Source: a virus
Direction: 5' to 3' (one strand)
Virus record (IMG/VR): IMGVR_UViG_3300031788_000005
Location: 19,068 to 83,067 of that record
DNA length: 64,000 nt
Part shown: positions 34,037-55,371 of the stretch, piece after piece
Layout of the letters: the number at the start of each line of letters is the position of its first letter
Position numbering within the stretch: position 1 is the first letter of the stretch
The notes under the pieces: model-generated
The model's input: only the letters and a program-made list of their open reading frames with translations
What the model was told of the DNA's origin: nothing
Databases searched by the model: none
Translations under genes and position numbers: made by a program

Positions 34037-34300
34037 TTGAATATAGAGAATTTTTCGGGGTTTGTCAAGAATTATTTAAATTTTAAACAATGGGCCATTT
34101 CCCATGGATATAAAGAAGGTTTAAGTATAGAAAGAATCAACCCAGATGGAAATTATTGTCCAGAAAATTGCGAATGGATAACTAAATCTGAAAATTCAAG
34201 TAGAGTTACGTCAGGTAGAGACGCAAAAATCCATTTTTTAACTGAAGAAAATATTCAATTAAAAAATAGGATAAAAGAATTAGAATTATTACTTAGGTAA
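34037..34300 (+). pseudogene. HNH endonuclease C-terminal remnant
   Basis: F.QWA...GY...LSIERINPDGNYCPENCEWIT..EN with no N-terminus. Confidence 0.65.
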
Positions 34301-34924
34301 AAAATAAAACCAATCGACGTGAGCCGCGTTTTTTACCGCATATGAGGCGGGAATAGGTCTAGGCTCCTGATGAAAAAACAGGGGAACTAACCCCACGTCT
34401 TCTAATTTTTTATTTCCGCGCTTGCTATTGATATCTTTATTCACGAGCATTAAATTTTCAAAATTACTTTTGCCTCCATGGGAGCGGGCAATTTTGTGTT
34501 CTATGTTAAGTTTGGAATACGGCAGACGAACCCCGCTATAACCACAGATTCCTTTTTGTTTTTCAAAAAGCACTGTTTTCGTAGGGCGAAATTTCCGAAG
34601 AGGCATTTTTGAATAGGACGTAACAATAATCGAGGGCGACCTTATTTGTATTTTCGCGCCGTGAATAACTTGGTCTATTCCGTTACGGATAGGTACTTCT
34701 AACCATTCTTCAAAAGAACAAGCTTTAAAACCAATAACATTATCAAAATCCCAAGACCCATCTTCTTTTTTGCCATATTCAATATTAATGGCTTTGGCAG
34801 CAGGACGTTCTCCATCCGAAGAACTATTCATTGCAACCACGGCTTGGCGCGGACTAGTTTGGCCAATAATTTGATACAACGCGTTCAAGACCAGTGTGCT
34901 GGATTTATTTAAAAAATCACTCAT
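34289..34924 (-). CDS. HNH endonuclease (McrA-like)
   Basis: LVLNA.Y, CGYSG, EHKIARSHGG..FENL, N..RGN. Confidence 0.85.
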   Translation of the reverse strand: MSDFLNKSSTLVLNALYQIIGQTSPRQAVVAMNSSSDGERPAAKAINIEYGKKEDGSWDFDNVIGFKACSFEEWLEVPIRNGIDQVIHGAKIQIRSPSIIVTSYSKMPLRKFRPTKTVLFEKQKGICGYSGVRLPYSKLNIEHKIARSHGGKSNFENLMLVNKDINSKRGNKKLEDVGLVPLFFHQEPRPIPASYAVKNAAHVDWFYFLPK

Positions 34925-34983: not shown

Positions 34984-35793
34984 ATGAATATTCACGCTCA
35001 CCCAACGAAGAAAATTGGCGTTTTGCCTCGTCCAGCACACGTTAAAACCTGTAAATTAGCCAATTATTTAAATATTGGGATGATTCCAACTCCCCCCGCA
35101 TCTTATGATTGGGGTACGACCGCTCCAAATTCTCTTCAAATGTTCATGAATGATTCCATAGGTGACTGCGCGGTAGCAGCTTATCTTCATCACAAAGAAA
35201 CAGTTTTGCAAACTGCTGGTTTGGGAGTTTCATTTCTTGACCCTGTTGCTTTGGAAGTTTATGAATGGGCAACAGCCGATGAAAATGGCGGACAAGGATA
35301 TAATCCAAAAGCAGGTTCTGGCGATAATAATCCAACCGATACTGGTTTAGTACTAGTGAGTTTTTTGGAAGATTTAAGGACTCGTGGATTGATTTATGCT
35401 CATGCCGAAGTTAATTTAAATAATGCCAAAGAAGTTGCAGCCGCGCAATATTTATTTGGTGGACTTTATGTGGGAGTTGCACTTCCTGTTTTTGTTCAAA
35501 ATCTTCAGAATCTTTGGTATATTCCAACCACCGCTCAAAACTTAGGAGACCCAACAAAAGGAAGTTGGGGCGGGCATTGCATTTATACTCGTGGAATTAC
35601 GCCAACGACTGGAAATACTATTTTAACGAGTTGGGGAGAAACTATTCAAGCAACTCCACAATGGATGCAAACTTATCAGGATGAGGCTCATATTATTGTT
35701 CATAAGCATTCAGCCGCAGCTTTTGATAAATTAGCTAGTGCTAATTTTGGAATTAATGACCTTATTGCCGACCTAAATGAAATAAAAAAATAA
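34984..35793 (+). CDS. papain-like cysteine peptidase-like protein
   Basis: NDSIGDC (catalytic Cys), GGHC, LTSWG; start set after the GTGTAAT motif. Confidence 0.65.
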   Translation: MNIHAHPTKKIGVLPRPAHVKTCKLANYLNIGMIPTPPASYDWGTTAPNSLQMFMNDSIGDCAVAAYLHHKETVLQTAGLGVSFLDPVALEVYEWATADENGGQGYNPKAGSGDNNPTDTGLVLVSFLEDLRTRGLIYAHAEVNLNNAKEVAAAQYLFGGLYVGVALPVFVQNLQNLWYIPTTAQNLGDPTKGSWGGHCIYTRGITPTTGNTILTSWGETIQATPQWMQTYQDEAHIIVHKHSAAAFDKLASANFGINDLIADLNEIKK

Positions 35794-35807
35794 TTAGATA
35801 TTTCTAC

Positions 35808-35855
35808 TTAAATTTTATTATTTATTAAATTGGTAATAGAGTATATTCCAGTCAT
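35808..35855 (-). pseudogene. GIY-YIG N-terminal relic (MTGIYSITNLINNKI*)
   Basis: GTGTAAT-7nt-ATG, then the GIY motif and a premature stop. Confidence 0.6.
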
Positions 35856-35885
35856 ATACTATATTACACTGTTTTACGTTTTTTA

Positions 35886-36111
35886 GCCGATATTTTGTGT
35901 TAATCTGACATTTTTCTCACTAACTGGATGTGGCGATGTGTTAATAATCGCTGCCCAAACCCGCTCTCAATGGAAAACATTATCCTCAAGCTGTTTTGGT
36001 TGCATCTACCTTTTGGTACAAACGAGTTTTTAAGACTCTCCCATGGCTGTTTTGATGTATCGAACTTCCTCTAATATAGGACTTTACCCATATCAGCGTC
36101 AGAATATTAAC
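35886..36111 (-). ncRNA. candidate minimal RNase P RNA-like element
   Basis: P3-like hairpin then GAGGAAGTTCGATACATC; GATGCAACC; P15-like CCAAA/TTTGG; distal AAAAATGTCAGATTA. Confidence 0.45.
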
Positions 36112-37138
36112 GTAATAATTCAATTTACACCATCCATCAAAATTTGTCAATTATTATCTTCAATATTATCTCCCCACCAAAAAACATCCGATTTGCTACC
36201 AAAGAAATTAGCTCCACCAAGTTCTATACTTAATTGCAAATTAGTATTATAGGTAAAATTAAAATAAGGAGGCATTTCATCTACTTGTAATGTTACAAAA
36301 ATACACTTCTTGGGGAGTTTATATGATGCAGAATTAATCGTTATTGGCGTTTGAATCATGCCGTGATTTAATGCTACGCGGCAGGTCTCGCGGAGACCAT
36401 CCAAATATCCCTGCTCATAAGTATGTTTCGGGTCAACGGTTGTTTTGCTACATCCCGCAAATAGCAGGACGGCAATTAGTAGTATTATATTTTTCATATT
36501 TATTTTTTAATCATGAATTTTTTAATGCGTTTTAAAAAAGCATCCAGATTTTCATTTTCTTTTACAATGTGGTCGTGGTCGTAATATGCTCCGTCGCCCT
36601 TGGTATTAAAATCTAATTCTTGGACTTCACAAGGAATATTCGAAAATTTCAGGAATTCTTTTATACCTTCAAATTTGTAAGAGAGTTTAGTATGATAATC
36701 GTCTCCTTCATCAAACTTTTTTCCGTCAACAAAAATGATGTAATACGCATCATATGACACATCCAATGTTACTAATGTTAATTTCATAAAATTATTATTT
36801 TCAAGGAATTTTTAAATCGAATTTAGGTACTTTTACGTTTTTATCAGGCTTTAATTTTTGTTGGTGTATTTTGGATAATTTTTCTCTCAATTCATAAACC
36901 TCTAATGCCAAACCAATTACCAGATTATCTCCCACTAAATCACGCCATTTTTCGCCATACCTTAAGGCTTCACCACCGCCATTTTTCCAATGTTGGACAG
37001 TATATTTTCCATCGCAGATAGTCACTTCCCAATCAATTTCTTTTTCGGTAACGGGTTCCCATGGACTTGGACTGACTATACATCCACATTTAAAAGTCTC
37101 TGGATTAACAATTTGTTTACAACGTTTGCATTTCCATT

Positions 37139-45498: not shown

Positions 45499-45588
45499 TG
45501 GTCGGTCTGCGGCGTAACGCTCGCCGTCTAGCTTATTAGGCAGTACCTGCGCCCAAGGCAGGTGGGTTCACTTTTTCCCTACAGACCG
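45499..45588 (-). tRNA. tRNA-Pro(TGG) with long variable region
   Basis: CGGTCTG/CAGACCG-ACCA; CCTGC-CTTGGGC-GCAGG. Confidence 0.8.
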
Positions 45589-46528
45589 ATAAATTTGTTT
45601 TTCTAAAAATCAATTGATTTGAACCCAGAAAATCGGCCACAGATTTAGCTGCTGTTAGTTCGTCATTAAATCTTTTTGAAAATTGTATTTTTCCTTGTTT
45701 TTTAACATTAGCAATCCATTTATTCCTAGACGAACTAAACGAAACATAAAGATATTTAGATGGAAAAACACGACTTATAGGTGTGATTTTTTTAATCCTG
45801 TTTCGTCTTGAAAATCTGGAAATATTTTTCCAATCTATGTTATAATAGACGCACCATTTACGTAGGGTATTATCACTTATATTATATTGTTTAGCAATAG
45901 TTAAAATGGGATGTATCTTAATTAGAGCAATCAAATCCTCTTTGGATGGTCTTCTCTGCTTTCTTCGGTTTTCATTAGAGCAAATAGCACATATATCATT
46001 GTTAGAGTATCCTTTTGATGGTTTCCCACACTCCTTACAAAAATAATATTTTTTATGTTTTTTCCCTGCAAATGTTGATGTCTGACTATGACAATTTGGA
46101 CAAAGAAATTCAAGATTTTCAATTCTATCATCGTCAGAAACTCCATTTTTATGTTCTAATTGTAAGGAAAGTTTCAAATTATTCCATTGTCCTTCATTTG
46201 AGCACTTTGAGCATTTATAAGGCAATAAATTAAATTTAATTAAATATTTTTTAGTACTTACGCGTTTGTGTGGAGAATGTTCCACTAATCTAGTTAAAAA
46301 CTCGTCCTTTGAAACTTCTTTAGTTAATATCGAAGAATGAAGTCTGTTTAGAAAATGGGAAGAGTCTATATTTAGTTCCTTAATTCTATTTTTACAGGTT
46401 ACATAGTTTCCACCTTTATTTTCCATCCCAAAAAACTTTAACACTTGGGACATTGTTTGGCTTGTAAGAATTAGTTTCTTAAAATCTGGTTCTGGATATG
46501 ACCATATGATACTTGTTCTTTTTCGCAT
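45536..46528 (-). CDS. HNH homing endonuclease with HTH and AP2-like C-terminal domains
   Basis: C..C...W....L.LQLEHKNG...D.R.ENL.FLCPNCHSQT; start MRKRT after GTGTAAT. Confidence 0.88.
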   Translation of the reverse strand: MRKRTSIIWSYPEPDFKKLILTSQTMSQVLKFFGMENKGGNYVTCKNRIKELNIDSSHFLNRLHSSILTKEVSKDEFLTRLVEHSPHKRVSTKKYLIKFNLLPYKCSKCSNEGQWNNLKLSLQLEHKNGVSDDDRIENLEFLCPNCHSQTSTFAGKKHKKYYFCKECGKPSKGYSNNDICAICSNENRRKQRRPSKEDLIALIKIHPILTIAKQYNISDNTLRKWCVYYNIDWKNISRFSRRNRIKKITPISRVFPSKYLYVSFSSSRNKWIANVKKQGKIQFSKRFNDELTAAKSVADFLGSNQLIFRKTNLSVCREKVNPPALGAGTA

Positions 46529-46584
46529 ATAGTATATTATACACGAATAATGGTGAACTATGAAGTAGGGGTTCGATATAAATT

Positions 46585-46668
46585 TGGCAGCCCCGATTCG
46601 ATTTGCACGAATGATGTTTATATTTCGGTTCCAAAGACCGACGCGTTCGACTACTCCGCCACGGGGCA
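46585..46668 (-). tRNA. tRNA-Gln(TTG) with long variable region
   Basis: TCGGT-CTTTGGA-ACCGA; G73. Confidence 0.8.
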
Positions 46669-46954
46669 ATAAAATTTCGGGAGCAACGTGTTACTAAACT
46701 AATCTAGTAGACATGACCCCCATCACCATAAAGGTGAGAAGTAAATTAATCTTGTGGAAACAAAAATTTCGCAAGAGAATCGTTATGCTCGTTGACGATT
46801 GTGTTAGCGTGGTCTGGCCACATTGCTTTTCCGAGAGTTACTTCATCTGGAAATCCAAGACATTTAACAACGTCCGCAACATCGTAATCAGTACCGCGTT
46901 TAACGATTCGAACGCCCCATTTGTTATGACGGAAATATTGGTCGTTGGTCATCT

Positions 46955-47458
46955 TTATTTTTTAATAGGAAATTCCAAACAAACCTCTCCTCTATCAGAA
47001 TAGTATGCTCCATCTGTAATTGACGCCTTAGATTTGTAAGCTTTTTTCTTGGAACGGTCATTCAAAAACTCAGCCAAGCATTTTTCATTATGTAAATGAT
47101 ATTGTTTATCTATCCCATCTGGACCTTTTAGGGTAGCAGCAATGGAATCTTCCTTGTCGTCTTTATCTTTGGTGTCGATTGGACGTTTACAGTTGTCACA
47201 AATTGTTTGGATTTTTGCCTCAGCAGTATAAGAAGCGACTGCACTTTTTTGAGTTTCCATTTTCTTGTTGATAAACGACGCCATACAAGCCATATCACAA
47301 AATTCATGTTGTTTTTTATAAGTGGCACCATTTGCTTCTGGCTCGCTAAGAAGAGCAACAGATATGTTTTTATGACCTTCTGGATAATGTTGGCCGAGTT
47401 CAGCGCCGCATTGGTCACACGCAACTACTTGTCTCGCGAAAGATTCTAAATTATTCAT
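46955..47458 (-). CDS. tandem Zn-finger (TRASH/YHS-like) protein
   Basis: CDQC...HEFCDMAC and CDNC...HLHNEKC; start MNNLES after GTGTAAT. Confidence 0.55.
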   Translation of the reverse strand: MNNLESFARQVVACDQCGAELGQHYPEGHKNISVALLSEPEANGATYKKQHEFCDMACMASFINKKMETQKSAVASYTAEAKIQTICDNCKRPIDTKDKDDKEDSIAATLKGPDGIDKQYHLHNEKCLAEFLNDRSKKKAYKSKASITDGAYYSDRGEVCLEFPIKK

Positions 47459-47536
47459 ACAACAAGTATTACACGCAAAAATACCCAAATAAAAAGAAAA
47501 AATCATACATTATTACCATTTTTGTGCATAATATAT

Positions 47537-47634
47537 TGAATTGAAAATGATACCGACTAACCGTTTTAGCCGTCCTTATGTGCTCCTAAGAAGAGTGTCT
47601 CTGTTTATCAGTTTCAATTCACCATAAGGGCGGT
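47537..47634 (+). promoter_or_regulatory. pseudoknotted 5' UTR, copy 2
   Basis: TGAATTGAAA/TTTCAATTCA crossed with GCCGTCCTTATG/CATAAGGGCGGT, ending 4 nt before the ATG. Confidence 0.55.
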
Positions 47635-47638
47635 AATT

Positions 47639-48322
47639 ATGATTTTTAACGACCTGCCAAAAACCTTCGGAATATATAAATTTACCAACAAAATAAATGG
47701 TCGCATCTATATTGGTAAGTCTAATAATCTTCGGTATAGAATAAAACACCATTTAAGAAAAAGTGCTAATCAAGTAATAGATAGAGCTATAAAAAAATAT
47801 GGATTAGATAATTTTGATATTGAAATTATTGATACATTTGAAAATATTGACAATACGGAACTTCTAGCTTTAGAGACTTCGTATATTGAATATTTTGAAT
47901 CTTTGGTTGGTCAAAATGGATATAACATTTGCCTGTTTGGTTTGAATAATACAGGGTGTAAAGTTTCAAATGAAACTAAATATAAAATAAGCATCGCACA
48001 TTTTGGAAAAAAACTTTCTCAAGAACATCGTCGTAAAATTAGTTTAAGTAGTTTGGGTAGAAAGGCTTCGGAAGAAACAAAAATCAAAATATCCATATCC
48101 CGTTTAGGAGATAAAAATCCTAATAAAAAATGGAAAGCCTATGGAAATCCGACTTTTAACAAAAACATATATCATTTCCAAAACCGAATAACTAATGAAA
48201 CTTTTACCGGCTATCAATATGATTTTTATACAAAATACAATCTACGCTCAACAAATGTAAATAGAATTATAAGTGGTAAAGACAAATCATTTAAAAATTG
48301 GATATTTTTAGGCCGTCTTTAA
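47639..48322 (+). CDS. GIY-YIG homing endonuclease with NUMOD3 repeats
   Basis: GIYKFTNKINGRIYIGKS, AIKKYG, GYN, S.ETK.KIS repeats. Confidence 0.92.
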   Translation: MIFNDLPKTFGIYKFTNKINGRIYIGKSNNLRYRIKHHLRKSANQVIDRAIKKYGLDNFDIEIIDTFENIDNTELLALETSYIEYFESLVGQNGYNICLFGLNNTGCKVSNETKYKISIAHFGKKLSQEHRRKISLSSLGRKASEETKIKISISRLGDKNPNKKWKAYGNPTFNKNIYHFQNRITNETFTGYQYDFYTKYNLRSTNVNRIISGKDKSFKNWIFLGRL

Positions 48323-48850
48323 ACTAAGATTTTTCCTACCCACTTTGTCTGGCAGCGAGTATAAAAGAGAGTTAACTGAAAATTTTTCTCCCTTTAAACC
48401 TTCGTGACCATCCAACTCCTTGTGGCTACCCTTTTTAACGTATGCTAGGGTGGCATGAGCATGATAAATTGGATAAGTTGTTTGAATTGAATTTTTAAAT
48501 TTGTCTTTTAAAGCGTAGTGAAGTTTTTGAGCATCTGGACTAATTACTTCAGCCTTTAAAACATCATAATCTGGACATTCAAAACGGCTTACAGAGCCTA
48601 ATTCAAAAGCTATAGATTCTTGATTTTCCAGAAAAGCTTTAAGTGGTTCAGTTTCAAAATCAGGGTCAAAACCATAAAGTACCGTTACATGATACTCGGT
48701 CTCTTTGCCATCTCCCGCAAGATTACTATCAGAAATATGTTTGTCGCTAAAAGTAGTGAGTTTTTGTGACAAATCTTTGCTAATCATCGCCATTAAACAG
48801 CCCTTGGAAACTCCCTCCTTGGCGTAGGCCAGTAAATCAATTATTATCAT
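48308..48850 (-). CDS. 2H phosphodiesterase (T4 gp57B/Acb1- or LigT-like)
   Basis: Two HxT motifs: HVTVLYG and HATLAY. Confidence 0.8.
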   Translation of the reverse strand: MIIIDLLAYAKEGVSKGCLMAMISKDLSQKLTTFSDKHISDSNLAGDGKETEYHVTVLYGFDPDFETEPLKAFLENQESIAFELGSVSRFECPDYDVLKAEVISPDAQKLHYALKDKFKNSIQTTYPIYHAHATLAYVKKGSHKELDGHEGLKGEKFSVNSLLYSLPDKVGRKNLSLKTA

Positions 48851-48858
48851 ATATTATT

Positions 48859-49173
48859 TTACACTTTTAATAGCGGAAAATATTGAAAACATTCAGGCCA
48901 GTCAACGCGGGGACAAAAAACAATGGCAATTTCTTGATTATTTAAATTCGATTCGGTAACGATAACGTAGTCTTTTTGAGTCTTTAGCATTTCGAATTCG
49001 ATATCCCTTACTTCAACAACTACCTTGCGAAAAGACTGGGAGAGCCACTCTTGATAAACGGGGTCATTCCCGAATTTAAGATGCGCCATTAAAACGCCGT
49101 GTGCTGCTCCCAAAACTTTATGAGAAGGAAGGGACTTCTTAATACAGATGTACATTTTTAGATTATTTTTCAT
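48859..49173 (-). CDS. peptidyl-tRNA hydrolase, Pth2-like
   Basis: KMYICIK, AAHG, W....FRKVV, C-terminal F.PR...F..L. Confidence 0.75.
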   Translation of the reverse strand: MKNNLKMYICIKKSLPSHKVLGAAHGVLMAHLKFGNDPVYQEWLSQSFRKVVVEVRDIEFEMLKTQKDYVIVTESNLNNQEIAIVFCPRVDWPECFQYFPLLKV

Positions 49174-49424
49174 ATCAGCGTCAAACCAGTTGGGTCTTTT
49201 AAAGCTTTTACTAAATTTCTGGCTGAGTTTCTAGCATCTTTGCGAGTAGGGATTCTCAAGCCTTCAAGGACACTGCCTTTAGGAAAATGGGTAAGACCTT
49301 TGTATGGATTTTTTTGATTTGATTTCATAAAATTTTTGCTGGAAGTTAGTGTCCAGCGGCACTGATGCAATTCGCCTATGCAACTAAGCTGGCCGATTAC
49401 TAACTCATCGGACCACTCGGAGAT

Positions 49425-49500
49425 TGGTATTGCCGACCAGAGTCGCACTGGCTAGGAATAGCTTGAAAGGCTACTTACTCCACTCTTTGTATTCAGCAAC
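49425..49500 (-). tRNA. tRNA-Glu(TTC)
   Basis: GTAGC-CTTTCAA-GCTAT. Confidence 0.75.
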
Positions 49501-49505
49501 ATAAA

Positions 49506-49886
49506 TTATTTTTTATCCTCATATAGAGTGACGTAATTCTTTCCATATTTTTTGATTGTGTAATCTAGAAAAGGCTTCATGTCTTTTTGGAAAATTACTT
49601 TGAGTTTTCCCTTAAATTGTGAAATTTTTTCTTTATTTTTAGGGGTTAACCATCCTTTTATCTCCACATATTCGTCGTTAATTTTAAAATCGGGATAAAA
49701 TTTAAATGTTCTGCCTTCAAAAACATAATCAAATCCAAAAGTATTTCTTGTAAATAAAATTCCATGTTCGATATTGTAAATAACCCAAGCCAATTCCCAA
49801 GAACTATTACAATAATAACCTTTATACCAACCCATGTGGCCCCGGCCAGCCTTTTCCCTGTATCCTCCGCGATTAGAATAATCCAT
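49506..49886 (-). CDS. PD-(D/E)XK endonuclease (TnsA-like), probably 5'-truncated
   Basis: SSWE, YPDF, VEIKGW; an in-frame KFCSREC Zn-finger remnant upstream runs into the tRNA. Confidence 0.75.
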   Translation of the reverse strand: MDYSNRGGYREKAGRGHMGWYKGYYCNSSWELAWVIYNIEHGILFTRNTFGFDYVFEGRTFKFYPDFKINDEYVEIKGWLTPKNKEKISQFKGKLKVIFQKDMKPFLDYTIKKYGKNYVTLYEDKK

Positions 49887-49981
49887 TCCCTTCCGTGTGC
49901 ATTCACGGGAACAAAATTTTCGTTTACCGTCAAAATAATCAGCAAACCTTTTGTGACAATAATGATTTTGATTGATAATAT

Positions 49982-50057
49982 TGGTAGGGTTAGCTGGTTT
50001 TGCGCCAATGCGTTTAAACTTTGAGAAAGTTTCGTGCTACTATTACACCATAACCCC
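49982..50057 (-). tRNA. tRNA-Glu(CTC)
   Basis: AAACT-TTCTCAA-AGTTT; bulged T stem. Confidence 0.7.
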
Positions 50058-50059
50058 AT

Positions 50060-50097
50060 AAAAAAGCCCGCGTTGCTACTTTTACACTATACTGCTA
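50060..50097 (-). pseudogene. orphan 5' half of a tRNA (TTT-like loop)
   Basis: AGCAGTA-TA-GTGTAAAAGTAGCAAC-GCGGG-CTTTTTA, then directly the next tRNA. Confidence 0.4.
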
Positions 50098-50184
50098 CAT
50101 TAGTCTAGCTTCTTTGTCCTCGACGGACGCCATTTAATGCAACTGTGTATTCGGTATTGCGCCGAATCCTCGGGACGATTGATA

Positions 50185-50252
50185 GCCAGTGTGCTGCCGC
50201 TGCACCAATACCGGCGAGGCCGGTATGTGGGATTCGAACCCACGTCTCTGAC
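50185..50252 (-). ncRNA. circularly permuted tRNA domain (YrlA/Y RNA-like)
   Basis: GTCAG, GTGGG-TTCGAAT-CCCAC, ATACCGGC-CTC-GCCGGTAT, GTGC-AGCGGCA-GCAC, CTGGC. Confidence 0.8.
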
Positions 50253-50328
50253 ACGATTGGACACCAGTGATTCATTAAAGAATTCTCCAAGTTAAAGGCT
50301 TGGCATGTTTCCATAGGCTGGTGAAATT

Positions 50329-50418
50329 TGGTGCAACCGGAGGGACTCGCACCCACGATGGAGCTATTAGCTCACAAGATTAAAAGTCTTGTCCTTTCGC
50401 TGCTAAGGGAACGATTGC
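50329..50418 (-). tRNA. tRNA-Lys(TTT) with a type II-like variable arm
   Basis: CAAGA-CTTTTAA-TCTTG; GAGCT-AAT-AGCTC arm. Confidence 0.8.
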
Positions 50419-50425
50419 ATTAAAT

Positions 50426-50503
50426 TGGTAGCGCAAGTGGCTTGAGGAACCACAACCTATCCCCTATCAAGGGAGTACTCTTACTCATTTGAGTTACTGC
50501 GCC
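50426..50503 (-). tRNA. tRNA-Ile(GAT)
   Basis: TCCC-TTGATAG-GGGA. Confidence 0.8.
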
Positions 50504-50521
50504 ATAAATTAATTAACTCTT

Positions 50522-50631
50522 TGGTTGTTTTCGGACGACTACTCTTGATGCCTCTCAAGTCGATTCAGACGTTACGGATTCAAAGTCCGTCACAACCTGT
50601 CTCTGCCCCGTCTATGCTATTCGAATAACAT
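50522..50631 (-). ncRNA. enlarged tRNA-like RNA with a Gln(TTG) anticodon hairpin
   Basis: ACGGA-CTTTGAA-TCCGT; TGTT-A-TTCG/CGAA-AACA-ACCA. Confidence 0.45.
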
Positions 50632-50658
50632 ATTCAGCCTCTTTTCCGTGAGTTAAAA

Positions 50659-50732
50659 TGGTGGGGTGTATAGGAATCGCACCTATGTTACGAAAGTGTC
50701 ATTCTCGTGTCCTAACTACTAGACTAACTCCC
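50659..50732 (-). tRNA. tRNA-Val(GAC)
   Basis: CGAGA-ATGACAC-TTTCG. Confidence 0.7.
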
Positions 50733-50737
50733 CGAAA

Positions 50738-50800
50738 TTGGTGAGTCCCAAGTTTCTAAACTTGGCCAGTCTCCTATTCGAAGAATGGCTTTTAAGACCC
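50738..50800 (-). ncRNA. approx. 63-nt mini tRNA-like RNA
   Basis: GGGTC/GACTC-ACCA, CCAAG/CTTGG T-like arm, one further hairpin. Confidence 0.45.
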
Positions 50801-50806
50801 ATAAAT

Positions 50807-50886
50807 TGGTCGCGGCGATGGGTACTGCCCCCACACGAATATTCCGATTAAAAGTCGGCTGCACGTTCTTTGGTAGCTTCACCGCG
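50807..50886 (-). tRNA. tRNA-Lys(TTT), second copy
   Basis: CCGA-CTTTTAA-TCGG. Confidence 0.75.
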
Positions 50887-50892
50887 AAAAAT

Positions 50893-50966
50893 TGGTTCCG
50901 AACCTTGGTAACGCTCCAAGTCTTAATGGGTAACAACCATTTGTGCGACTTTCACACTCGTAGGGA
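50893..50966 (-). tRNA. tRNA-Asn(GTT)
   Basis: AATGG-TTGTTAC-CCATT; mismatched acceptor. Confidence 0.75.
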
Positions 50967-51061
50967 ATAAAAAAAATCAATGCAAATAACCACACCTAGA
51001 TATTAGGCTACAAGTATATCGAGTCCTTGACGGCTCTTACGAAATCCGCCTTGCATTAAAT

Positions 51062-51149
51062 TGGCTCTAGAGGCTTGAGTTGAACAAGCAGTGCTTTTTA
51101 AAGCGGTGGATTAACAATCCACTGAGTTTACCAATTCTTCTACTCTAGA
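51062..51149 (-). tRNA. tRNA-Asn(GTT) with long variable arm
   Basis: GTGGA-TTGTTAA-TCCAC; GCTTT/AAAGC arm; G73. Confidence 0.85.
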
Positions 51150-51156
51150 ACCAATT

Positions 51157-51450
51157 TTACTTGCTGACCTCATTTTTGACTATACACTCATTTGCTGGGG
51201 AATTTAGCAGCGTGGCGTCCAAGCCTTTTATGTTCCCTCTATCTTATCACTAAGATGCAAAATTTACCCTAACGATTGAATAATTGCTACACGGCCAAGC
51301 TCATAATCGCATTATGAAGTATTAACGACAAATCTCCTTCTCTATGTGCGTTTTTAAAATGGACGAAAACGCTGACTACTTACGATATACCCTTTGGGGC
51401 CGTCGTCCCATGGGCTAGGGAATTAATTCCCGCAATGACAGACCAAGTAA
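51157..51450 (-). ncRNA. approx. 294-nt unknown structured RNA
   Basis: TTACTTG..CTG/CAG-CAAGTAA closing stem; several hairpins; no ORF. Confidence 0.5.
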
Positions 51451-51494
51451 ATTAAATTTTTGTCTTCACTACATTTCAAGTGTAATAACAATAT

Positions 51495-51902
51495 GTGAGA
51501 GAAAAAATATTACAATTACGAAAAGAAGGTAAAACATTCAGAGAAATACAAAAACTTGTTCCATGTAGCGCATCAACAGTTTGGTATCATTGTGGAAAAG
51601 GCGCAAAGGAAAAACATAGAAGACAAAAAAGGAAAAACTATGCTCGTATTCAAATAGAGATAAAATCTCACTTCGAAGGAAAATGCAAAATTTGTGGATA
51701 TAATAAATGTTTGTCAGCTCTGGAATTTCATCATCTCGATTCCTCTAAAAAGGAAAAAACAGTATCTAGGTTTATCCAAGCTGGTTCAAAAAGTAAAGCC
51801 TATAAAGAAGCAGAAAAATGTATTCTAATATGTGCTAATTGCCATAGAGAATTACATGAAAACGAAAAGCTTATTCGCCATCCTACAATGACAGACCATT
51901 AA
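51495..51902 (+). CDS. HNH endonuclease with N-terminal HTH
   Basis: CKICGYNKC.SALEFHH.D, C.LICANCHRELH. Confidence 0.85.
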   Translation: MREKILQLRKEGKTFREIQKLVPCSASTVWYHCGKGAKEKHRRQKRKNYARIQIEIKSHFEGKCKICGYNKCLSALEFHHLDSSKKEKTVSRFIQAGSKSKAYKEAEKCILICANCHRELHENEKLIRHPTMTDH

Positions 51903-51983
51903 TTTAAAACAGTTTCGCCTCCCTATAACACTATAGACTTTATTTTTTCTTAACCAGCGCGATTGCTGGTGAGGTTACTAAAT

Positions 51984-52058
51984 TGGAGCACTTGGGGAAT
52001 TTTGAAATCCCGACGTTCACTTTGGAAGAGTGACACTCTGCCTCTGAGTTACAAGTGC
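51984..52058 (-). tRNA. tRNA-Gly(TCC)
   Basis: TCACT-CTTCCAA-AGTGA; U73. Confidence 0.9.
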
Positions 52059-52063
52059 ATAAA

Positions 52064-52136
52064 TGGATGCAGCGATTGGGATTGCACCAATGGAGTTCGT
52101 CTTATGAGGGCGAATTGAATACTAATTCTCACTGCG
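52064..52136 (-). tRNA. tRNA-Met(CAT), initiator-like
   Basis: C1:A72 mismatch; loop CTCATAA. Confidence 0.7.
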
Positions 52137-52219
52137 ATAAAAAATGGTCGTAAAAACTATTAAAGTAATCTCAAAAATCATCTTTCTCTTTGAGTTTACT
52201 TTTGTGTATCTATTAATAT

Positions 52220-52744
52220 ATGAAAAATAAATATACCAAAGAACAAGTAGAAAACGCGGTTTTAGAATCTAAATGTTATTCAGATGTTTTTAGAAATTTA
52301 GGACTTAAAATAAATGGTGGTTCTTATCATTGGATTAAAAATTTAATAAAAAAACATGATATAAATATTACTCATTTCTTAACATCAAAAGAATTATTTA
52401 AATTAAATCATTTTATTAAAAAAACTAATTTTTTGGGTATACAAAAAATTGAATCTAATCAACGCATCAGAGCTAAAAAACTTAGAAAATTTATGTTAGA
52501 TAATAATGTTGATTATAAATGTAACATTTGTAATATTTTAGAATGGCTCGGGAAACCTATGACGCTAGATATAGACCACATTGACGAAAATTGTCTAAAT
52601 AATCAAATTGAAAATCTTCAATTTCTTTGTCCAAATTGTCATAGACAGAAGACTCAATTAAAATTAAATGGTTGCGTTCGCCAGAATCGGACTGGTCCTT
52701 TGCCTTATGAGGACAACGTGCGCCATTACACTCCCACGCAATAA
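52220..52744 (+). CDS. HNH endonuclease
   Basis: CNIC...WLGKP.TLDIDHID....NN.IENLQFLCPNCHRQ. Confidence 0.88.
   Translation: MKNKYTKEQVENAVLESKCYSDVFRNLGLKINGGSYHWIKNLIKKHDINITHFLTSKELFKLNHFIKKTNFLGIQKIESNQRIRAKKLRKFMLDNNVDYKCNICNILEWLGKPMTLDIDHIDENCLNNQIENLQFLCPNCHRQKTQLKLNGCVRQNRTGPLPYEDNVRHYTPTQ
52669..52740 (-). tRNA. tRNA-Met(CAT)
   Basis: TTGTC-CTCATAA-GGCAA. Confidence 0.75.
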
Positions 52745-52746
52745 AT

Positions 52747-52822
52747 TGGTCGCTTTCACAAGACTTCTTCCTTGTATTTCCAGCCTCATTGCTGGTGTCC
52801 TAGAATTTTAGACGATACGGCG
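52747..52822 (-). pseudogene. degenerate tRNA-like gene
   Basis: D and T arms and CCA present, but a 6-nt anticodon loop and broken acceptor. Confidence 0.5.
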
Positions 52823-52827
52823 ATAAA

Positions 52828-52903
52828 TGGTACAGGCGGTGGGACTCGCACCCACGAAAACTCCGCCCCAAACGGAGTGGCATAGCTACTAACCGACGCC
52901 TAT
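52828..52903 (-). tRNA. tRNA-Pro(TGG)
   Basis: CTCCG-TTTGGGG-CGGAG. Confidence 0.75.
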
Positions 52904-52974
52904 AAATTTTAAAATGTTAGTCCCATTTATTCTTTGACGAGAAAATAATGGTTCGGTACTCAACTAGCATAAAT

Positions 52975-53052
52975 TGGAAGTCAGTTTCGGTAACGCTCCG
53001 AATATACGAGCAGGTTTGCAATCTGCGGGGTTTTCTTACTCCCTCACTGACT
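52975..53052 (-). tRNA. tRNA-Cys(GCA)
   Basis: GCAG-A-TTGCAAA-C-CTGC; U73. Confidence 0.85.
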
Positions 53053-53061
53053 ATTATAAAA

Positions 53062-53138
53062 TGGCGGACATGACCGGACCTGCCCCGGCTTAATCATCGT
53101 TGACAACGATGCGATTCGACTCCTTCATCTTCATATCC
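53062..53138 (-). tRNA. tRNA-Asp(GTC)
   Basis: CATCG-TTGTCAA-CGATG; G73. Confidence 0.85.
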
Positions 53139-53144
53139 ATAAAT

Positions 53145-53235
53145 TGGTGCATCCAGAAGGATTTCCACCTTCACGCTACTATTACTTCGCAACAGAGTCT
53201 AAATCTGTCATGGCTGGTTGTTTCATCATGGATGC
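53145..53235 (-). tRNA. tRNA-Leu(TAG)
   Basis: ACAGA-TTTAGAC-TCTGT; long variable arm. Confidence 0.85.
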
Positions 53236-54285
53236 ATTTCTTAAAATTAACTTATCAGAATTAAAATATTTTGCAATCGCTTCTGCTGCCTCCAACTCTG
53301 TTTCTCCTCTCTTAAAAAATAATGCTTTGCCGTTTTTTCTCACAATGGCTCTCCATTTAGAATTTCCTTTATCAACTTGAACATAAGCATATTGAGACGC
53401 CCTAATCACTTTTTCTTTGACTGATTTGGGGTTCGCTTTTTTATAAAAATGAGAAAATGGAGACAAACTTTTATAGTCTATTTGATAATCTTCGCACCAA
53501 CGGACAATTGCGTTGCCGGTTAAGTTAAAACTTTTCGCTATTTGCGAGAACGACTTTCCCTTTATTAAAGAAATTAATTCATTTTTTGATGGCCTAATTA
53601 CTTTACGCTTATTTAATCTAGGGGCAGTTCTCCAGAATGGATTAGGAATATATTTTAATTTATCCTCTCTCGTTGGAGCTTTTAAAAATTCCAGATTGTA
53701 TTTTTCTTTAATCTTCTTGATTCTGTTATGAGATTTCCCATAAAGATTTCTTCCTAATTTTCTTAATACGTCGGTTGCCGAGTAAGATGTTTTAATGGCT
53801 TCTACTAAGACCTGTTCGTCAACCGGTTTTGAGATTTTTCTGATTCCAAAGTTGGTTGTTTTTGAATGGCAATTTGGGCATAAAATCTGTAAATTTTCCA
53901 AATGATTATTATGATGATTCCCGTCTTTGTGGTGAAGTTCTAGTGGAATATCGTCTCCTAGCCATGATGTATTTGAGCATACTTCGCACTTCCTTTCTTT
54001 TATCTGTTCGTCAAAAAGGCGGAACTTTAATGGGTTAGAGTTAATCCTCCTTTTTCCATTAAAATAATCAGAAATTGGATATTTGAATCCAAATATGCCG
54101 CCTCTCCTACTAGCTTGCCCTAAAAAATGAGAATCATCTAAATTAAACTTTTTAATTGTGTTGTAGATTTTTTTATAATTCTCCCCTCCGCGTTCATACA
54201 TCCCCATTGCTTTAAGAATTGCGGCTACTGATTTTAATTGTTTTTGTTGAATTAACTTGACAGCTTCTTGTTCGTTATATTTCAT
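53182..54285 (-). CDS. HNH homing endonuclease with HTH and AP2-like domains (paralog of 45536-46528)
   Basis: CEVC...WLG..IPLELHHKDG...NN.LENLQILCPNCHS; RPSK.ELI.LIK; SQY.YV...KW.A. Confidence 0.9.
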   Translation of the reverse strand: MKYNEQEAVKLIQQKQLKSVAAILKAMGMYERGGENYKKIYNTIKKFNLDDSHFLGQASRRGGIFGFKYPISDYFNGKRRINSNPLKFRLFDEQIKERKCEVCSNTSWLGDDIPLELHHKDGNHHNNHLENLQILCPNCHSKTTNFGIRKISKPVDEQVLVEAIKTSYSATDVLRKLGRNLYGKSHNRIKKIKEKYNLEFLKAPTREDKLKYIPNPFWRTAPRLNKRKVIRPSKNELISLIKGKSFSQIAKSFNLTGNAIVRWCEDYQIDYKSLSPFSHFYKKANPKSVKEKVIRASQYAYVQVDKGNSKWRAIVRKNGKALFFKRGETELEAAEAIAKYFNSDKLILRNASMMKQPAMTDLDSVAK

Positions 54286-54342
54286 AAGACACTCTTTAAG
54301 ATATTATACCGCTGATTGTGCTAAAATTACAATATATTTAAA

Positions 54343-54421
54343 ATGGTGCAAAACTCCAGATTTCCACTGGAAAGCCACTAATTTTGAGTTAGCGAGGTAT
54401 GGTAGTTCCCGTCAGTTTTGC
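54343..54421 (-). tRNA. tRNA-Leu(CAA) lacking the long variable arm
   Basis: GCTAA-CTCAAAA-TTAGT; GCAAAAC/GTTTTGC-ACCA. Confidence 0.75.
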
Positions 54422-54422
54422 A

Positions 54423-54512
54423 TGGTGTCATTGATAGGACTCGCACCTATACGCTGCTTTGATTTCGCCCAAAGTTCTCAACCTTGGATGTATTCTATTC
54501 CATCACAATGAC
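54423..54512 (-). tRNA. tRNA-Leu(GAG)
   Basis: CAAGG-TTGAGAA-CTTTG; long variable arm. Confidence 0.85.
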
Positions 54513-54516
54513 AAAT

Positions 54517-54627
54517 TGGTGGGAGATGCGAAGCTTTTCACTATCGCAGCAATTCGAATTCAACTGGCCAGTTAACATAAGAATTAGAGTGTTATATTAC
54601 CCCGCGTTTATCTTTCGCCAATCTCCC
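54517..54627 (-). ncRNA. 111-nt enlarged tRNA-like RNA
   Basis: Perfect GGGAGAT/ATCTCCC-ACCA; D arm; no 7-nt anticodon loop; approx. 35-nt variable arm. Confidence 0.55.
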
Positions 54628-54632
54628 GTAAA

Positions 54633-54710
54633 TGGTAGTTCGTGCAGGCTGATGTCCTGCGCCTCTTCGCCTATAAAGCAAACGCTCTTAATCGTGTAAG
54701 CTAACGAACC
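54633..54710 (-). tRNA. tRNA-Ile(TAT)
   Basis: TTTGC-TTTATAG-GCGAA. Confidence 0.8.
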
Positions 54711-54718
54711 ATAAAAAT

Positions 54719-54795
54719 TGGTAGGTATTAAAGGATTCTAACCTATATCTTTCACGTTCGAAGCGTGACACTCTATACATTTGAGATAAATACCC
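54719..54795 (-). tRNA. tRNA-Arg(TCG)
   Basis: TCACG-CTTCGAA-CGTGA. Confidence 0.85.
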
Positions 54796-54813
54796 ATTAA
54801 ATGTTTCTTAAAA

Positions 54814-54891
54814 TGGTGTCCCAAGAAAGAGTCGAACTTTCATAATCCAATTATGCACAAGACGCTTCGCAAGCGTAGCCATTACTGGGAC
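54814..54891 (-). tRNA. D-armless tRNA-Arg(GCG)
   Basis: GTCCCAG/TTGGGAC-ACCA; ACGC-TTGCGAA-GCGT; GAAAG-TTCGACT-CTTTC. Confidence 0.65.
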
Positions 54892-55146
54892 GTAAAATTT
54901 TGAGTTCAATATTTCATTCTCACTAGAGCTAGGGAATCGCACCAATGCCATATTAAACTTGGTAGTCAAGCAGTAGTAGGAAATAATTTTCCAACCGTTT
55001 TGACGACCCTAAAACTCGCTGATTTTTTTCAGAAACCGAGGCTAAACCAGTAAAACCTATCCGACTTCACTGTTTTTCTCTGCACTTACTTCTCCGCTTT
55101 GCCGCCACGTCCCCGTCCGAATACGACAACTAACTCGCGGCAAAAA

Positions 55147-55222
55147 TGGTCAGGTGGCCGAGTGCCGACCTCGGTTAGTCAGTTTCACGAACTGAGAAAT
55201 TAGCCGTTATTATACGCACCTG
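55147..55222 (-). tRNA. tRNA with GTG (His) anticodon on an atypical body
   Basis: TCAGT-TCGTGAA-ACTGA (C33); C1-G72 and A73, no obvious G-1. Confidence 0.55.
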
Positions 55223-55286
55223 TAAAAATGCTAGGATAAATTTCTCTATCCCGCGTCTAACCGTCGAAACGATTAGAGGAGTAAAA

Positions 55287-55371
55287 TGGTGGTAGTTGAG
55301 GAAATTGCATCCCCGTAGGCCGAAGCCAACGCGTTTACAGCGCGTCACAATTGCTACTCTGTCAAACTACC
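55287..55371 (-). tRNA. tRNA-Tyr(GTA)
   Basis: ACGCG-CTGTAAA-CGCGT; GGC-TTCG-GCC variable arm. Confidence 0.9.

What the first reader, a model, noticed from the sequence alone, without database searches (positions are those of the whole stretch)
35886..36135. Candidate minimal RNase P RNA with most of the specificity domain missing
Seen (minus strand, about 225 nt, after a GGTGTAAA promoter-like motif), in RNase P order: GCTGA (pairs with distal TTAGT, P2-like), hairpin ATATGGG/CCTATAT (P3-like), GAGGAAGTTCGATA (CR-I-like), CATC pairing with GATG in GATGCAACC (P5-like), CCAAA/TTTGG (P15-like), a GCGAT/ATCGC hairpin, and AAAAATGTCAGATTA able to close an imperfect P4. Only about 45 nt sit where the S-domain would be. 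Known: the S-domain reads the tRNA D/T elbow, and archaeal type T RNAs lack most of it. Inference: an elbow-independent RNase P would suit this phage's non-canonical tRNAs. The CR-V match is weak and an alternative end-to-end pairing exists.
Basis: partly seen in the sequence, partly recalled or inferred. Interest (0 to 1): 0.75.

Follow-up and report, generated by a model that had tools for sequence, protein, structure and literature searches.

The report
Phage-encoded miniature RNase P RNA
A T4-like peat phage carries its own 242-base, stripped-down RNase P RNA (the ribozyme that trims the 5' ends of new tRNAs); it keeps the catalytic half, has almost none of the half that reads the tRNA elbow, and belongs to a widespread phage family that I found in no paper or RNA catalogue.

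Summary

- **What it is:** window 36115-35874 (minus strand) is a ~242-nt RNA gene behind a TTGACA-17-TAAATT promoter. It lies between two convergent protein genes.
- **Family:** I found at least 43 distinct homologues (about 235-415 nt) in IMG/VR phage contigs, nearly all inside tRNA arrays. One sits unannotated in the cultured Stenotrophomonas phage DLP6.
- **Structure:** covariation supports P2, P3, P5, P15-P17, a P15.1-like hairpin, P18 and both pseudoknots, P4 and P6. P1 rests on position-consistent complementarity.
- **Conserved strands:** CR-I, J5/15, the L15 GGU, J18/2 and CR-V are all kept, in RNase P order.
- **Model matches:** two longer members align end to end to Rfam RNaseP_bact_b (E 2e-8 and 3e-5). 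The window copy itself matches no Rfam model.
- **S-domain:** only 47 nt lie between the P5 strands.
- **Expression:** three peat metatranscriptome runs each hold a 203-220-nt contig inside the gene.
- **Partner protein:** no RnpA gene was found in six phage records.
- **Likely function:** it probably works with host RnpA on the phage's CCA-ending pre-tRNAs.

The link to this phage's odd tRNA elbows is unproven, because the reduced S-domain is family-wide. The scan had already noted similar mini RNase P RNAs in other phage genomes.

The parts
36122..36150 (-). Sigma70-type promoter: -35 TTGACA (36150-36145), 17-nt spacer, -10 TAAATT (36127-36122). The -35 overlaps the stop codon of the upstream 116-aa lipoprotein ORF.
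   Evidence: 10 of 12 matches. Homologues in G001 and G002 have TTGACA-N17-TAnAnT at the same place (read by eye).
35874..36115 (-). The whole RNase P RNA gene as encoded (P1 to P1'), 242 nt.
36109..36115 (-). P1 5' strand, UUACGUU. It pairs with AACGUAA at 35880-35874.
   Evidence: A terminal helix at this position is present in most family members (median z = -3.0; 28 of 39 below -2). The window's own duplex is weak (z = -1.3).
36097..36103 (-). P2 5' strand, UCUGACG. It pairs with UGUCAGA at 35910-35904.
   Evidence: helix 1: 100% paired, 3 covarying pairs.
36071..36096 (-). P3 hairpin, CUGAUAUGGG / CCUAUAUUAG, loop UAAAGU.
   Evidence: helix 2: 98.4% paired, 3 covarying pairs.
36058..36070 (-). 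CR-I equivalent: J3/4 AGGA plus the P4 5' strand AGUUCGAUA, with one bulged U.
   Evidence: UAGAGGAAGUUC is near-invariant: one of the 22 sequences differs at one base. It aligns to GAGGAAAGUCC of RF00011.
36054..36057 (-). P5 5' strand, CAUC. It pairs with GAUG at 36006-36003.
   Evidence: helix 4: 97.7% paired, all 4 pairs covary.
36048..36052 (-). P6 pseudoknot 5' strand, AAACA. It pairs with UGUUU at 35979-35975, in the loop of the P17-like hairpin.
   Evidence: helix 5: 96.3% paired, all 5 pairs covary.
36009..36046 (-). Vestigial S-domain: a P7-like stem (CCAUGG / CCAAAAGG) enclosing one hairpin (GAGU/ACUC, 36038-36024) and the single strand GUUUGUA.
   Evidence: P7-like 95% paired and hairpin 93% paired, each with 3 covarying pairs.
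35955..36002 (-). J5/15 CAA (36002-36000); P15 CCAAA/UUUGG; P16-like GCU/AGC; P17-like GGA/UCC; the GGU motif (35961-35959) next to the P15 3' strand.
   Evidence: P15 100% paired in 43 sequences. GGUU is invariant in A2.
35933..35951 (-). P15.1-like hairpin, GCGAU / AUCGC.
   Evidence: helix 5: 95.8% paired, all 5 pairs covary. It aligns to P15.1 of RF00011.
35918..35932 (-). P18-like hairpin, CAC / GUG, with a 9-nt loop. Several relatives have a GNRA tetraloop here; the window copy does not.
   Evidence: helix 6: 94.5% paired. Loops read.
35904..35917 (-). J18/2 AGAAAAA followed by the P2 3' strand UGUCAGA.
   Evidence: GAGAUAAAUGU is near-invariant. It aligns to AGAuAgAUg + P2' of RF00011.
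35885..35903 (-). CR-V equivalent: J2/4 UUAACACAAAA (the ACA.AA motif) plus the P4 3' strand UAUCGGCU.
   Evidence: helix 3: 99.4% paired; 4 pairs with 6-12 double changes each and no unpaired cell. It aligns to ACAaAACAUGGCUUA of RF00011.
35874..35880 (-). P1 3' strand, AACGUAA.

Best explanation
The locus is a phage-encoded homologue of bacterial RNase P RNA (rnpB). It is transcribed from its own sigma70-type promoter.

It has a complete catalytic (C) domain:
- Helices P1-P5, P15-P17 with the P6 pseudoknot, a P15.1-like hairpin, P18, and the P4 pseudoknot with its bulged U.
- The conserved single strands CR-I, J5/15, L15 GGU, J18/2 and CR-V.

Its specificity (S) domain is reduced to a P7-like stem plus one small hairpin.

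Inferred mechanism: the RNA assembles with the host's RnpA protein, since none is encoded in the phage records examined. It then removes 5' leaders from the phage's own tRNA precursors. Substrates would be held by the acceptor stem, by pairing of the genomically encoded 3' CCA with the retained GGU, and by protein-leader contacts, rather than by S-domain stacking on the T-loop/D-loop elbow.

Shown here: homology, structure, conservation, and presence in RNA libraries. Inferred: catalysis, the protein partner and the substrates.
For: 1. Family. Pattern scans plus nhmmer found 57 loci and 43 distinct sequences in IMG/VR contigs. Nearly all lie within tRNA arrays.

2. Covariation on 22 sequences:
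- P2, 100% paired.
- P3, 98.4%.
- P4 pseudoknot, 99.4%, with 4 covarying pairs and no unpaired cell.
- P5, 97.7%.
- P6 pseudoknot, 96.3%, with all 5 pairs covarying.
- 0 of 500 shuffles reach the observed values, and slid controls give 35-44% paired.
- On 43 sequences: P15 100%, P15.1 95.8%, P18 94.5%.

3. Link to RNase P.
- L198 and L141 align to RF00011 over model positions 1-365, at 35.9 bits (E 2e-8) and 25.6 bits (E 2.9e-5).
- CR-I, P5, P15, P15.1, P18, J18/2 + P2' and CR-V are all placed correctly.
- A model of the phage 3' half (R1) hits the 3' half of 6 of 10 genuine bacterial rnpB genes, on the right strand and at the right place. The best hit overall has E 0.046.
- Motif-by-motif comparison with real rnpB sequences agrees.

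4. Near-invariant UAGAGGAAGUUC, GCAA, GGUU, GAGAUAAAUGU and ACA.AA...GGCUA are all present in the window copy.

5. Nearly all tRNAs next to family members end in an encoded CCA (11 of 11 in the window; a few loci are exceptions). This fits the retained GGU.

6. Three RNA-library runs from three peat studies each hold a contig of 203-220 nt lying wholly inside the gene (35886/7 to 36089-36105). All three stop at 35886/7 where a DNA contig runs on. This shows presence in RNA libraries and gives a weak hint of a defined 3' end.

7. No PF00825 (RnpA) was found in the window's record or in five relatives. Two of those are at least 91% complete, and the control rings in 10 bacteria.
Against: - The window copy itself matches no RNase P model at E <= 10: Rfam; RF00010 and RF00011 over the whole record.
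- The RF00011 scores of the relatives are far below the gathering score (26-36 bits against 97). RF00010 found nothing in five longer members.
- The reciprocal hits of R1 are individually weak (E 0.05-2.5), and unrelated hits score in the same range.
- A sequence-only HMM of the family finds nothing in bacterial rnpB loci.
- P4 differs slightly from the canonical form: GUUC instead of GUCC, and one A fewer in J3/4.
- P18 in the window lacks the GNRA loop that several relatives have.
- Catalysis, RnpA binding and substrates are untested.
- Logan contigs cannot prove transcription, strand or RNA ends.
Confidence: 0.7

Rival explanations
1. It is an RNase P RNA-derived ribozyme with a changed job. 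Having lost elbow recognition, it would cleave other phage or host RNAs (mRNAs, tmRNA precursors, the tRNA-like RNAs of the array, or host transcripts), much as RNase MRP diverged from RNase P in eukaryotes.
For: The S-domain is reduced across the family. The arrays also hold tmRNA, GOLLD and tRNA-like RNAs. In the window the gene stands about 5 kb from the tRNA array, with its own promoter.
Against: The GGU that pairs with the tRNA 3' CCA is invariant, and nearly all neighbouring tRNAs encode CCA. The gene sits inside tRNA arrays in nearly all relatives. Every catalytic-core element typical of pre-tRNA cleavage is kept.
Confidence: 0.12
2. It is a decoy or sponge. A catalytically weak RNase P RNA look-alike would soak up the host's RnpA protein, or compete for pre-tRNAs, so as to shut down host tRNA maturation during infection.
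For: No RnpA gene was found in six phage records, so any protein partner must come from the host. The protein-binding C-domain regions (P2/P3, J18/2, P15) are the best conserved parts.
Against: Conservation extends to elements needed for chemistry and substrate docking rather than for protein binding alone: the P4 bulged U, J3/4, J5/15 and the L15 GGU. The phage's own large tRNA set needs 5' processing too, so blocking RNase P would hurt the phage.
Confidence: 0.1
3. It is an unrelated phage non-coding RNA whose resemblance to RNase P is convergent or accidental.
For: No Rfam model reaches its gathering score on any member. The window copy gets no RNase P hit at all.
Against: Five conserved single-stranded motifs and at least ten helices, including two pseudoknots, occur in exactly the RNase P order. 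There are end-to-end RF00011 alignments at E 2e-8 and 3e-5, and reciprocal hits fall on true rnpB genes at the right place.
Confidence: 0.03
4. It is a decaying relic of a captured host rnpB gene, or eroded coding sequence, with no function.
For: The S-domain is missing and P18 has lost its GNRA loop in the window copy. A 54-aa ORF (35986-36150, minus strand) overlaps the 5' half.
Against: Compensatory changes keep all helices paired across 43 divergent sequences. The invariant core motifs are intact in the window copy. A promoter is kept. RNA-library contigs match the gene. Insertions and deletions among homologues are not in multiples of three.
Confidence: 0.03

Closest known systems
Bacterial type A RNase P RNA (Rfam RF00010; M1 RNA / rnpB of E. 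coli and relatives)
   Same: - The same order of P1, P2, P3, CR-I/P4, P5, P6, P15-P16-P17, P18, J18/2, P2', CR-V/P4', P1'.
- A P6 pseudoknot between J5/7 and the P17 loop.
- GGU next to the P15 3' strand.
- A bulged U in P4.
Compare.
   Different: - The S-domain (P8-P14 with CR-II/CR-III) is replaced by a P7-like stem and one hairpin: 47 nt against about 150 nt.
- There is an extra hairpin between P15 and P18.
- P4 reads GUUC instead of GUCC.
- It is encoded by a phage.
- It gets no RF00010 hit.
Bacterial type B RNase P RNA (Rfam RF00011; Bacillus subtilis type)
   Same: This is the only Rfam model that aligns to family members, and it does so end to end. The hairpin after P15 aligns to P15.1, and some members (G002, L198) have a P19-like hairpin between P2' and CR-V.
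   Different: The phage RNAs keep P6/P16/P17, which type B lacks. They lack P5.1, P10.1 and the whole P10-P12 module. Scores are 26-36 bits against a gathering score of 97.
Archaeal type T RNase P RNA of Thermoproteaceae (Rfam RF02357; from my own knowledge: Lai et al. 2010)
   Same: It is a natural RNase P RNA that keeps the C-domain and has lost almost the whole S-domain, so it is the best functional analogy for elbow-independent substrate recognition.
   Different: It has an archaeal core and works with several archaeal proteins; its origin is independent, and it is cellular and essential rather than viral. There is no Rfam hit of this family in the window.
Reduced cellular bacterial RNase P RNAs (Mycoplasma fermentans and some CPR bacteria lacking P12; PMC8172020) and engineered C-domain-only ribozymes (my own knowledge)
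   Same: They show that bacterial RNase P RNA tolerates loss of S-domain helices. Engineered C-domains still cleave pre-tRNA in vitro, especially with the protein or at high salt.
   Different: Those cellular forms lose single helices, not the whole P8-P14 block. The CPR forms often lack the CCA-binding motif, whereas the phage family keeps GGU.

Membership tests
Bacterial RNase P RNA (clan CL00002) | P4 helix formed by long-range pairing of CR-I and CR-V, with a bulged U. | tested here: met
   helix 3: 99.4% paired, with 4 pairs showing 6-12 double changes and no unpaired cell. In the window, AGU[U]CGAUA (36066-36058) pairs with UAUCGGCU (35892-35885).
Bacterial RNase P RNA (clan CL00002) | Conserved single strands in order: CR-I (GAGGAAAGUCC), J5/15 (AGCAA), J18/2 (AGAUnAAUG), CR-V (ACAGAAnnCGGCUUA). 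| tested here: met
   Invariant or near-invariant UAGAGGAAGUUC, GCAA, GAGAUAAAUGU and ACA.AA...GGCUA. They were compared with the RF00011 consensus and with real rnpB genes. Small deviations: GUUC for GUCC, and one A fewer.
Bacterial RNase P RNA (clan CL00002) | P1-P2-P3 stack at the 5' end, with the P2 3' strand lying just 5' of CR-V. | tested here: met
   P2 100% and P3 98.4% paired, both with covariation. P1 is present in most members.
Bacterial RNase P RNA (clan CL00002) | L15 GGU motif for the tRNA 3' RCCA. | tested here: met
   GGUU is invariant and directly 5' of the P15 3' strand. Window position 35961-35959. Nearly all neighbouring tRNAs encode CCA.
Bacterial RNase P RNA (clan CL00002) | Specificity domain with P10-P12 and the CR-II/CR-III T-loop modules. 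| tested here: not met
   Only 47 nt lie between the P5 strands in the window: the P6 strand, a P7-like stem and one hairpin.
Bacterial RNase P RNA (clan CL00002) | Score at or above the Rfam gathering threshold (RF00010 100 bits, RF00011 97 bits). | tested here: not met
   The window gets no hit at E <= 10. Relatives score 25.6 and 35.9 bits on RF00011. RF00010 found nothing.
Bacterial RNase P RNA (clan CL00002) | Site-specific 5'-leader cleavage of pre-tRNA, stimulated by RnpA. | not testable with these tools
   This needs a bench assay. No RnpA gene was found in six phage records, so the host protein is the presumed partner.
Type A architecture | P6 pseudoknot with P16/P17. | tested here: met
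   P6 is 96.3% paired and all 5 pairs covary; P16 is 87.9% and P17 81.8% paired.
Type B architecture | P5.1, P10.1, P15.1 and P19 present; P6, P16 and P17 absent. | tested here: not met
   A P15.1-like hairpin is present, and P19 occurs in only some members. But P6/P16/P17 are present, and P5.1 and P10.1 are absent.
Archaeal type T RNase P RNA (RF02357) | Archaeal C-domain sequence and structure; match to the type T model. | tested here: not met
   No Rfam hit. The core motifs and P15/GGU are bacterial in type. The resemblance is functional only (loss of the S-domain).

The most novel reading that the evidence does not exclude
The phage enzyme is truly elbow-independent, and this has freed, or co-evolved with, a rewired tRNA elbow in this lineage. 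Most tRNAs of the window phage and of its close relative G002 carry G55 in the T-loop (UGCRA) together with AG in place of GG in the D-loop.

The phage would then run a partly orthogonal tRNA maturation system: its own ribozyme plus tRNAs whose altered elbows are poor substrates for host factors or host tRNA-targeting defences.
Probability: 0.2. Interest if true: 0.9.

Novelty: new variant of a known kind. Interest (0 to 1): 0.82.

Why it matters
- RNase P RNA is regarded as a universal cellular ribozyme. I found no paper describing one encoded by a virus, and no Rfam family captures this group.
- It is a natural bacterial-type RNase P RNA of about 240 nt that keeps the full catalytic core and has almost no S-domain. 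That makes it a ready minimal ribozyme for asking how substrates are recognised without the tRNA elbow.
- It adds tRNA 5' processing to the translation-related functions that tRNA-rich phages bring with them (tRNAs, tmRNA).
- The family is widespread. It occurs in T4-like and huge phages, including two 735-kb records.
- It is present in environmental RNA libraries.
- It occurs in a cultured phage with a known host, Stenotrophomonas phage DLP6, so the question can be tested directly.

Tried and rejected
**Searches that gave nothing**
- Rfam on the window found only tRNAs at gathering threshold and no RNase P at E <= 10 in 1001-nt and 266-nt searches.
- RF00010 and RF00011 over the whole phage record gave nothing at the locus. 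RF00010 on five longer members gave nothing. An Rfam E-value search of 13 loci together gave no RNase P hit; the filters are tighter with more sequence.
- blastn of the window RNA, of a 12-kb context and of L084 against cultured phages found no match.
- The search for related loci with the neighbouring 269-aa protein found nothing. The first exact-pattern scan found nothing.
None is a family member by nhmmer. The one weak hit, L327, looks coding and has no Rfam match. This suggests, but does not prove, absence from cellular genomes.
- A sequence-only HMM of the family against 10 bacterial rnpB loci found nothing.

**Readings I rejected**
- I first thought the P2 3' strand lying 5' of the P4 3' strand contradicted RNase P topology. 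That was my error: the RF00011 structure line shows this is the normal order.
- An alternative pairing of GCUGAU with AUCGGC was rejected, because G002 does not support it while P4 covaries.
- A protein-coding reading (54-aa ORF 35986-36150) was rejected on the pattern of substitutions and indels.

**RNA-library cover**
- The flanking ORFs (35300-35665 and 36106-36800) had no cover in the three RNA runs, and the P1 strands were not covered.
- Only the shared stop at 35886/7 counts, and only as a weak hint.

No complex prediction was run.
Full report
**Context.** The window is part of an 83-kb IMG/VR phage record from peat metagenomes. The phage is T4-like: it has rIIA, rIIB, an RNA ligase, thymidylate synthase and homing endonucleases. 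The finding lies in a 353-nt gap (35794-36146) between two convergent ORFs:
- a 269-aa protein of PHROG 19005 on the plus strand;
- a 116-aa lipoprotein on the minus strand.

A tRNA array lies 5-20 kb away on the same strand.

**The observation.** On the minus strand there is a sigma70-type promoter, TTGACA-17-TAAATT, at 36150-36122. A structured region follows it. Its single-sequence fold is only modestly better than shuffles (z = -2.06). The window copy matches no Rfam family, including every RNase P model, at E <= 10. The comparative evidence overturns this.

**Homologues.**
- Two related phages were found through a nearby protein. Both hold colinear homologues of the RNA.
- Degenerate pattern scans of IMG/VR, followed by nhmmer, gave 57 loci and 43 distinct sequences. 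With the ~16 nt of added flank removed they are about 235-415 nt long.
- Nearly all lie inside tRNA arrays, sometimes with tmRNA or GOLLD RNA nearby.
- None of 120 pattern matches in bacterial and archaeal genomes is a member.
- Members also occur in two 735-kb huge-phage records.
- One member sits in the cultured T4-like Stenotrophomonas phage DLP6. Model R1 scores it 63.5 bits (E 8e-12), in an unannotated 258-nt gap next to tRNA-Arg. The DLP6 paper (PMC5349666) never mentions RNase P.

**Structure.** A 22-sequence MAFFT alignment (A1) shows invariant ACGCUG and invariant or near-invariant UAGAGGAAGUUC, GCAA, GGUUG, GAGAUAAAUGU and ACA.AA...GGCUA. Counting pairs on it gave:

| Helix | Cells paired | Covariation |
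|---|---|---|
| P2 | 100% | 3 pairs |
| P3 | 98.4% | 3 pairs |
| P4 (long-range) | 99.4% | 4 pairs, 6-12 double changes each, no unpaired cell |
| P5 | 97.7% | all 4 pairs |
| P6 pseudoknot | 96.3% | all 5 pairs |
| P15 | 93.9% | all 3 pairs |
| P16 | 87.9% | all 3 pairs |
| P17 | 81.8% | all 3 pairs |

- None of 500 shuffles reached the observed values, and slid controls gave 35-44% paired.
- On a model-fitted alignment of 43 sequences, P15 is 100% paired, the hairpin after it 95.8% and P18 94.5%. That alignment leans towards the model's structure.
- A terminal P1 is present in most members.
- Window coordinates of every element were verified.

**Why it is RNase P.**
- The order of elements is exactly that of bacterial RNase P: P1, P2, P3, CR-I/P4, P5, P6, [S], P5', J5/15, P15-P17 with GGU, P15.1-like hairpin, P18, J18/2, P2', CR-V/P4', P1'.
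- I first mistook the position of the P2 3' strand for a conflict. The RF00011 structure line corrected me.
- In narrow Rfam searches the longer members L198 and L141 align to RNaseP_bact_b over model positions 1-365, at 35.9 bits (E 2e-8) and 25.6 bits (E 2.9e-5). All conserved blocks are in register.
- In the reverse direction, a covariance model of the phage 3' half (R1) was searched against 34 kb around ten genuine rnpB genes. Its best hit overall, and five further hits, fell on the 3' half of rnpB on the correct strand (E 0.046-2.5). Each hit is weak, but together they are strongly enriched.
- Direct comparison with those rnpB sequences shows the same motif blocks.
- The architecture is a hybrid. 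It is type A-like in P6/P16/P17, with a type B-like P15.1 hairpin and, in some members, P19.

**The S-domain.**
- Between the P5 strands the family has 40-174 nt, and the window has 47.
- In the minimal members this region holds the P6 5' strand, a P7-like stem (95% paired), one small hairpin (93% paired) and a conserved single strand. Both helices covary.
- P8-P14 and the CR-II/CR-III modules that contact the tRNA elbow are absent.

- P3, CR-I, P5, P15 and the GCGAU hairpin were right.
- The 'P2-like GCTGA/TTAGT' pairing and the assignment of AAAAATGTCAGATTA to P4 were wrong. That stretch is J18/2 plus P2'.

**Expression.**
- Twenty-one peat DNA runs (kind guessed from their records) and three peat metatranscriptome runs, all from different studies, hold the sequence.
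- Each RNA run has one contig of 218, 220 or 203 nt lying wholly within the gene: 35886-36102, 35886-36105 and 35887-36089.
- All three stop at 35886/7, where a DNA contig continues.
- Contigs cannot prove transcription, strand or ends. I take this as presence in RNA libraries and a weak hint of a defined 3' end near the end of P4.

**Partner and substrates.**
- No RnpA (PF00825) gene is detectable in the window's record or in five relatives. Two of those are at least 91% complete, and the control rings in 10 bacteria. The host protein is the likely cofactor; this is an inference.
- All 11 ARAGORN tRNAs of the window, and nearly all tRNAs beside other family members, end in an encoded CCA. This fits the invariant GGU.

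**The tRNA-elbow idea.**
- Eight of 11 window tRNAs have G at position 55 (T-loop UGCRA and similar), with AG rather than GG in the D-loop.
- The close relative G002 shares this.
- G001 has an equally small RNase P RNA but mostly canonical tRNAs. So do nearly all other family-bearing phages, including minimal-form ones such as L190, L194 and L147.
- Loss of the S-domain is therefore a family trait and not a response to this phage's tRNAs. It may have permitted the elbow changes, but that is untested.

**Novelty.**
- Seven searches of about 8.4 million papers and preprints for phage or viral RNase P RNA returned nothing relevant.
- PMC8172020 shows how unusual loss of P12 is, even in cellular bacteria.
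- Subscription journals are not covered, so prior description cannot be excluded.
- Earlier notes of this scan report comparable mini RNase P RNAs in other phage genomes. I did not examine those sequences.

**Verdict.** This is a real, conserved phage gene for a miniature RNase P RNA that is present in environmental RNA libraries. Homology and structure are shown. Catalysis with host RnpA on phage pre-tRNAs is the most likely function (0.7) but remains to be tested.

Noticed in passing
window 45499-55371 (minus strand); L367 (G002:C1:116500-131500); L368 (G001:C1:336000-353772): Most tRNAs of the window phage (8 of 11) and of relative G002 have G at T-loop position 55 (UGCGA-type or AGCGUUA loops), with AG instead of GG in the D-loop. 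G001 and most other phages carrying the RNA family have canonical UUC loops. A few UGC-loop tRNAs turn up at low frequency in many of these phages, for example 6 of 29 in L234.
   Followed up: partly
L369 2300-2550 = KU682439.2 about 105,770-106,020: The cultured Stenotrophomonas maltophilia phage DLP6 has an unannotated member of this RNA family (R1 63.5 bits) between a hypothetical CDS and tRNA-Arg-CCG, inside its 30-tRNA region. Its published description does not mention RNase P.
   Followed up: partly
L198 9185-9273: In the longest family member, the S-domain position holds a tRNA-shaped insert with a canonical GGUUCAAUUCC T-arm (weak Rfam tRNA-Sec match, E 0.45). This could be a tRNA-like module inside an RNase P RNA.
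   Followed up: no
LR756501.1 / LR756503.1 181324-181523; LR745206.1 502106-502227: Uncultured huge phages of 735 kb and 635 kb hold family members (79% and 73% identity to L194 over part of the RNA). These records carry no annotation.
   Followed up: no
L135 10181-10407: Model R1 hits two adjacent stretches (43.7 and 36.9 bits) in one locus. The 3' half may be duplicated, or may carry a large insertion, in this 415-nt member.
   Followed up: no
window 35830-35867 (minus strand): A long A+U-rich imperfect hairpin (GUAAUAUAGUAUAU ... AUAUACUCUAUUAC) lies just 3' of the RNA gene, between the convergent genes. It may be a bidirectional terminator or a processing stem. The G+C-based terminator scan does not flag it.
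   Followed up: no
window 35666-35841: One RNA-library run (X22) also has a 176-nt contig over the 3' end of the 269-aa plus-strand gene and the start of the intergenic region.
   Followed up: no
L156 3020-3403; L141 5523-5903; L168 7795-8171; L187 2524-2979 and 5446-5667: Phages carrying the RNA family also encode tmRNA (standard or permuted) and, in one case, a GOLLD RNA within the same tRNA arrays.
   Followed up: no
window 34289-34924 (minus) and 16194-17231 (plus): Free-standing HNH and GIY-YIG-type homing endonuclease genes lie near the locus. This is typical of T4-like genomes.
   Followed up: no
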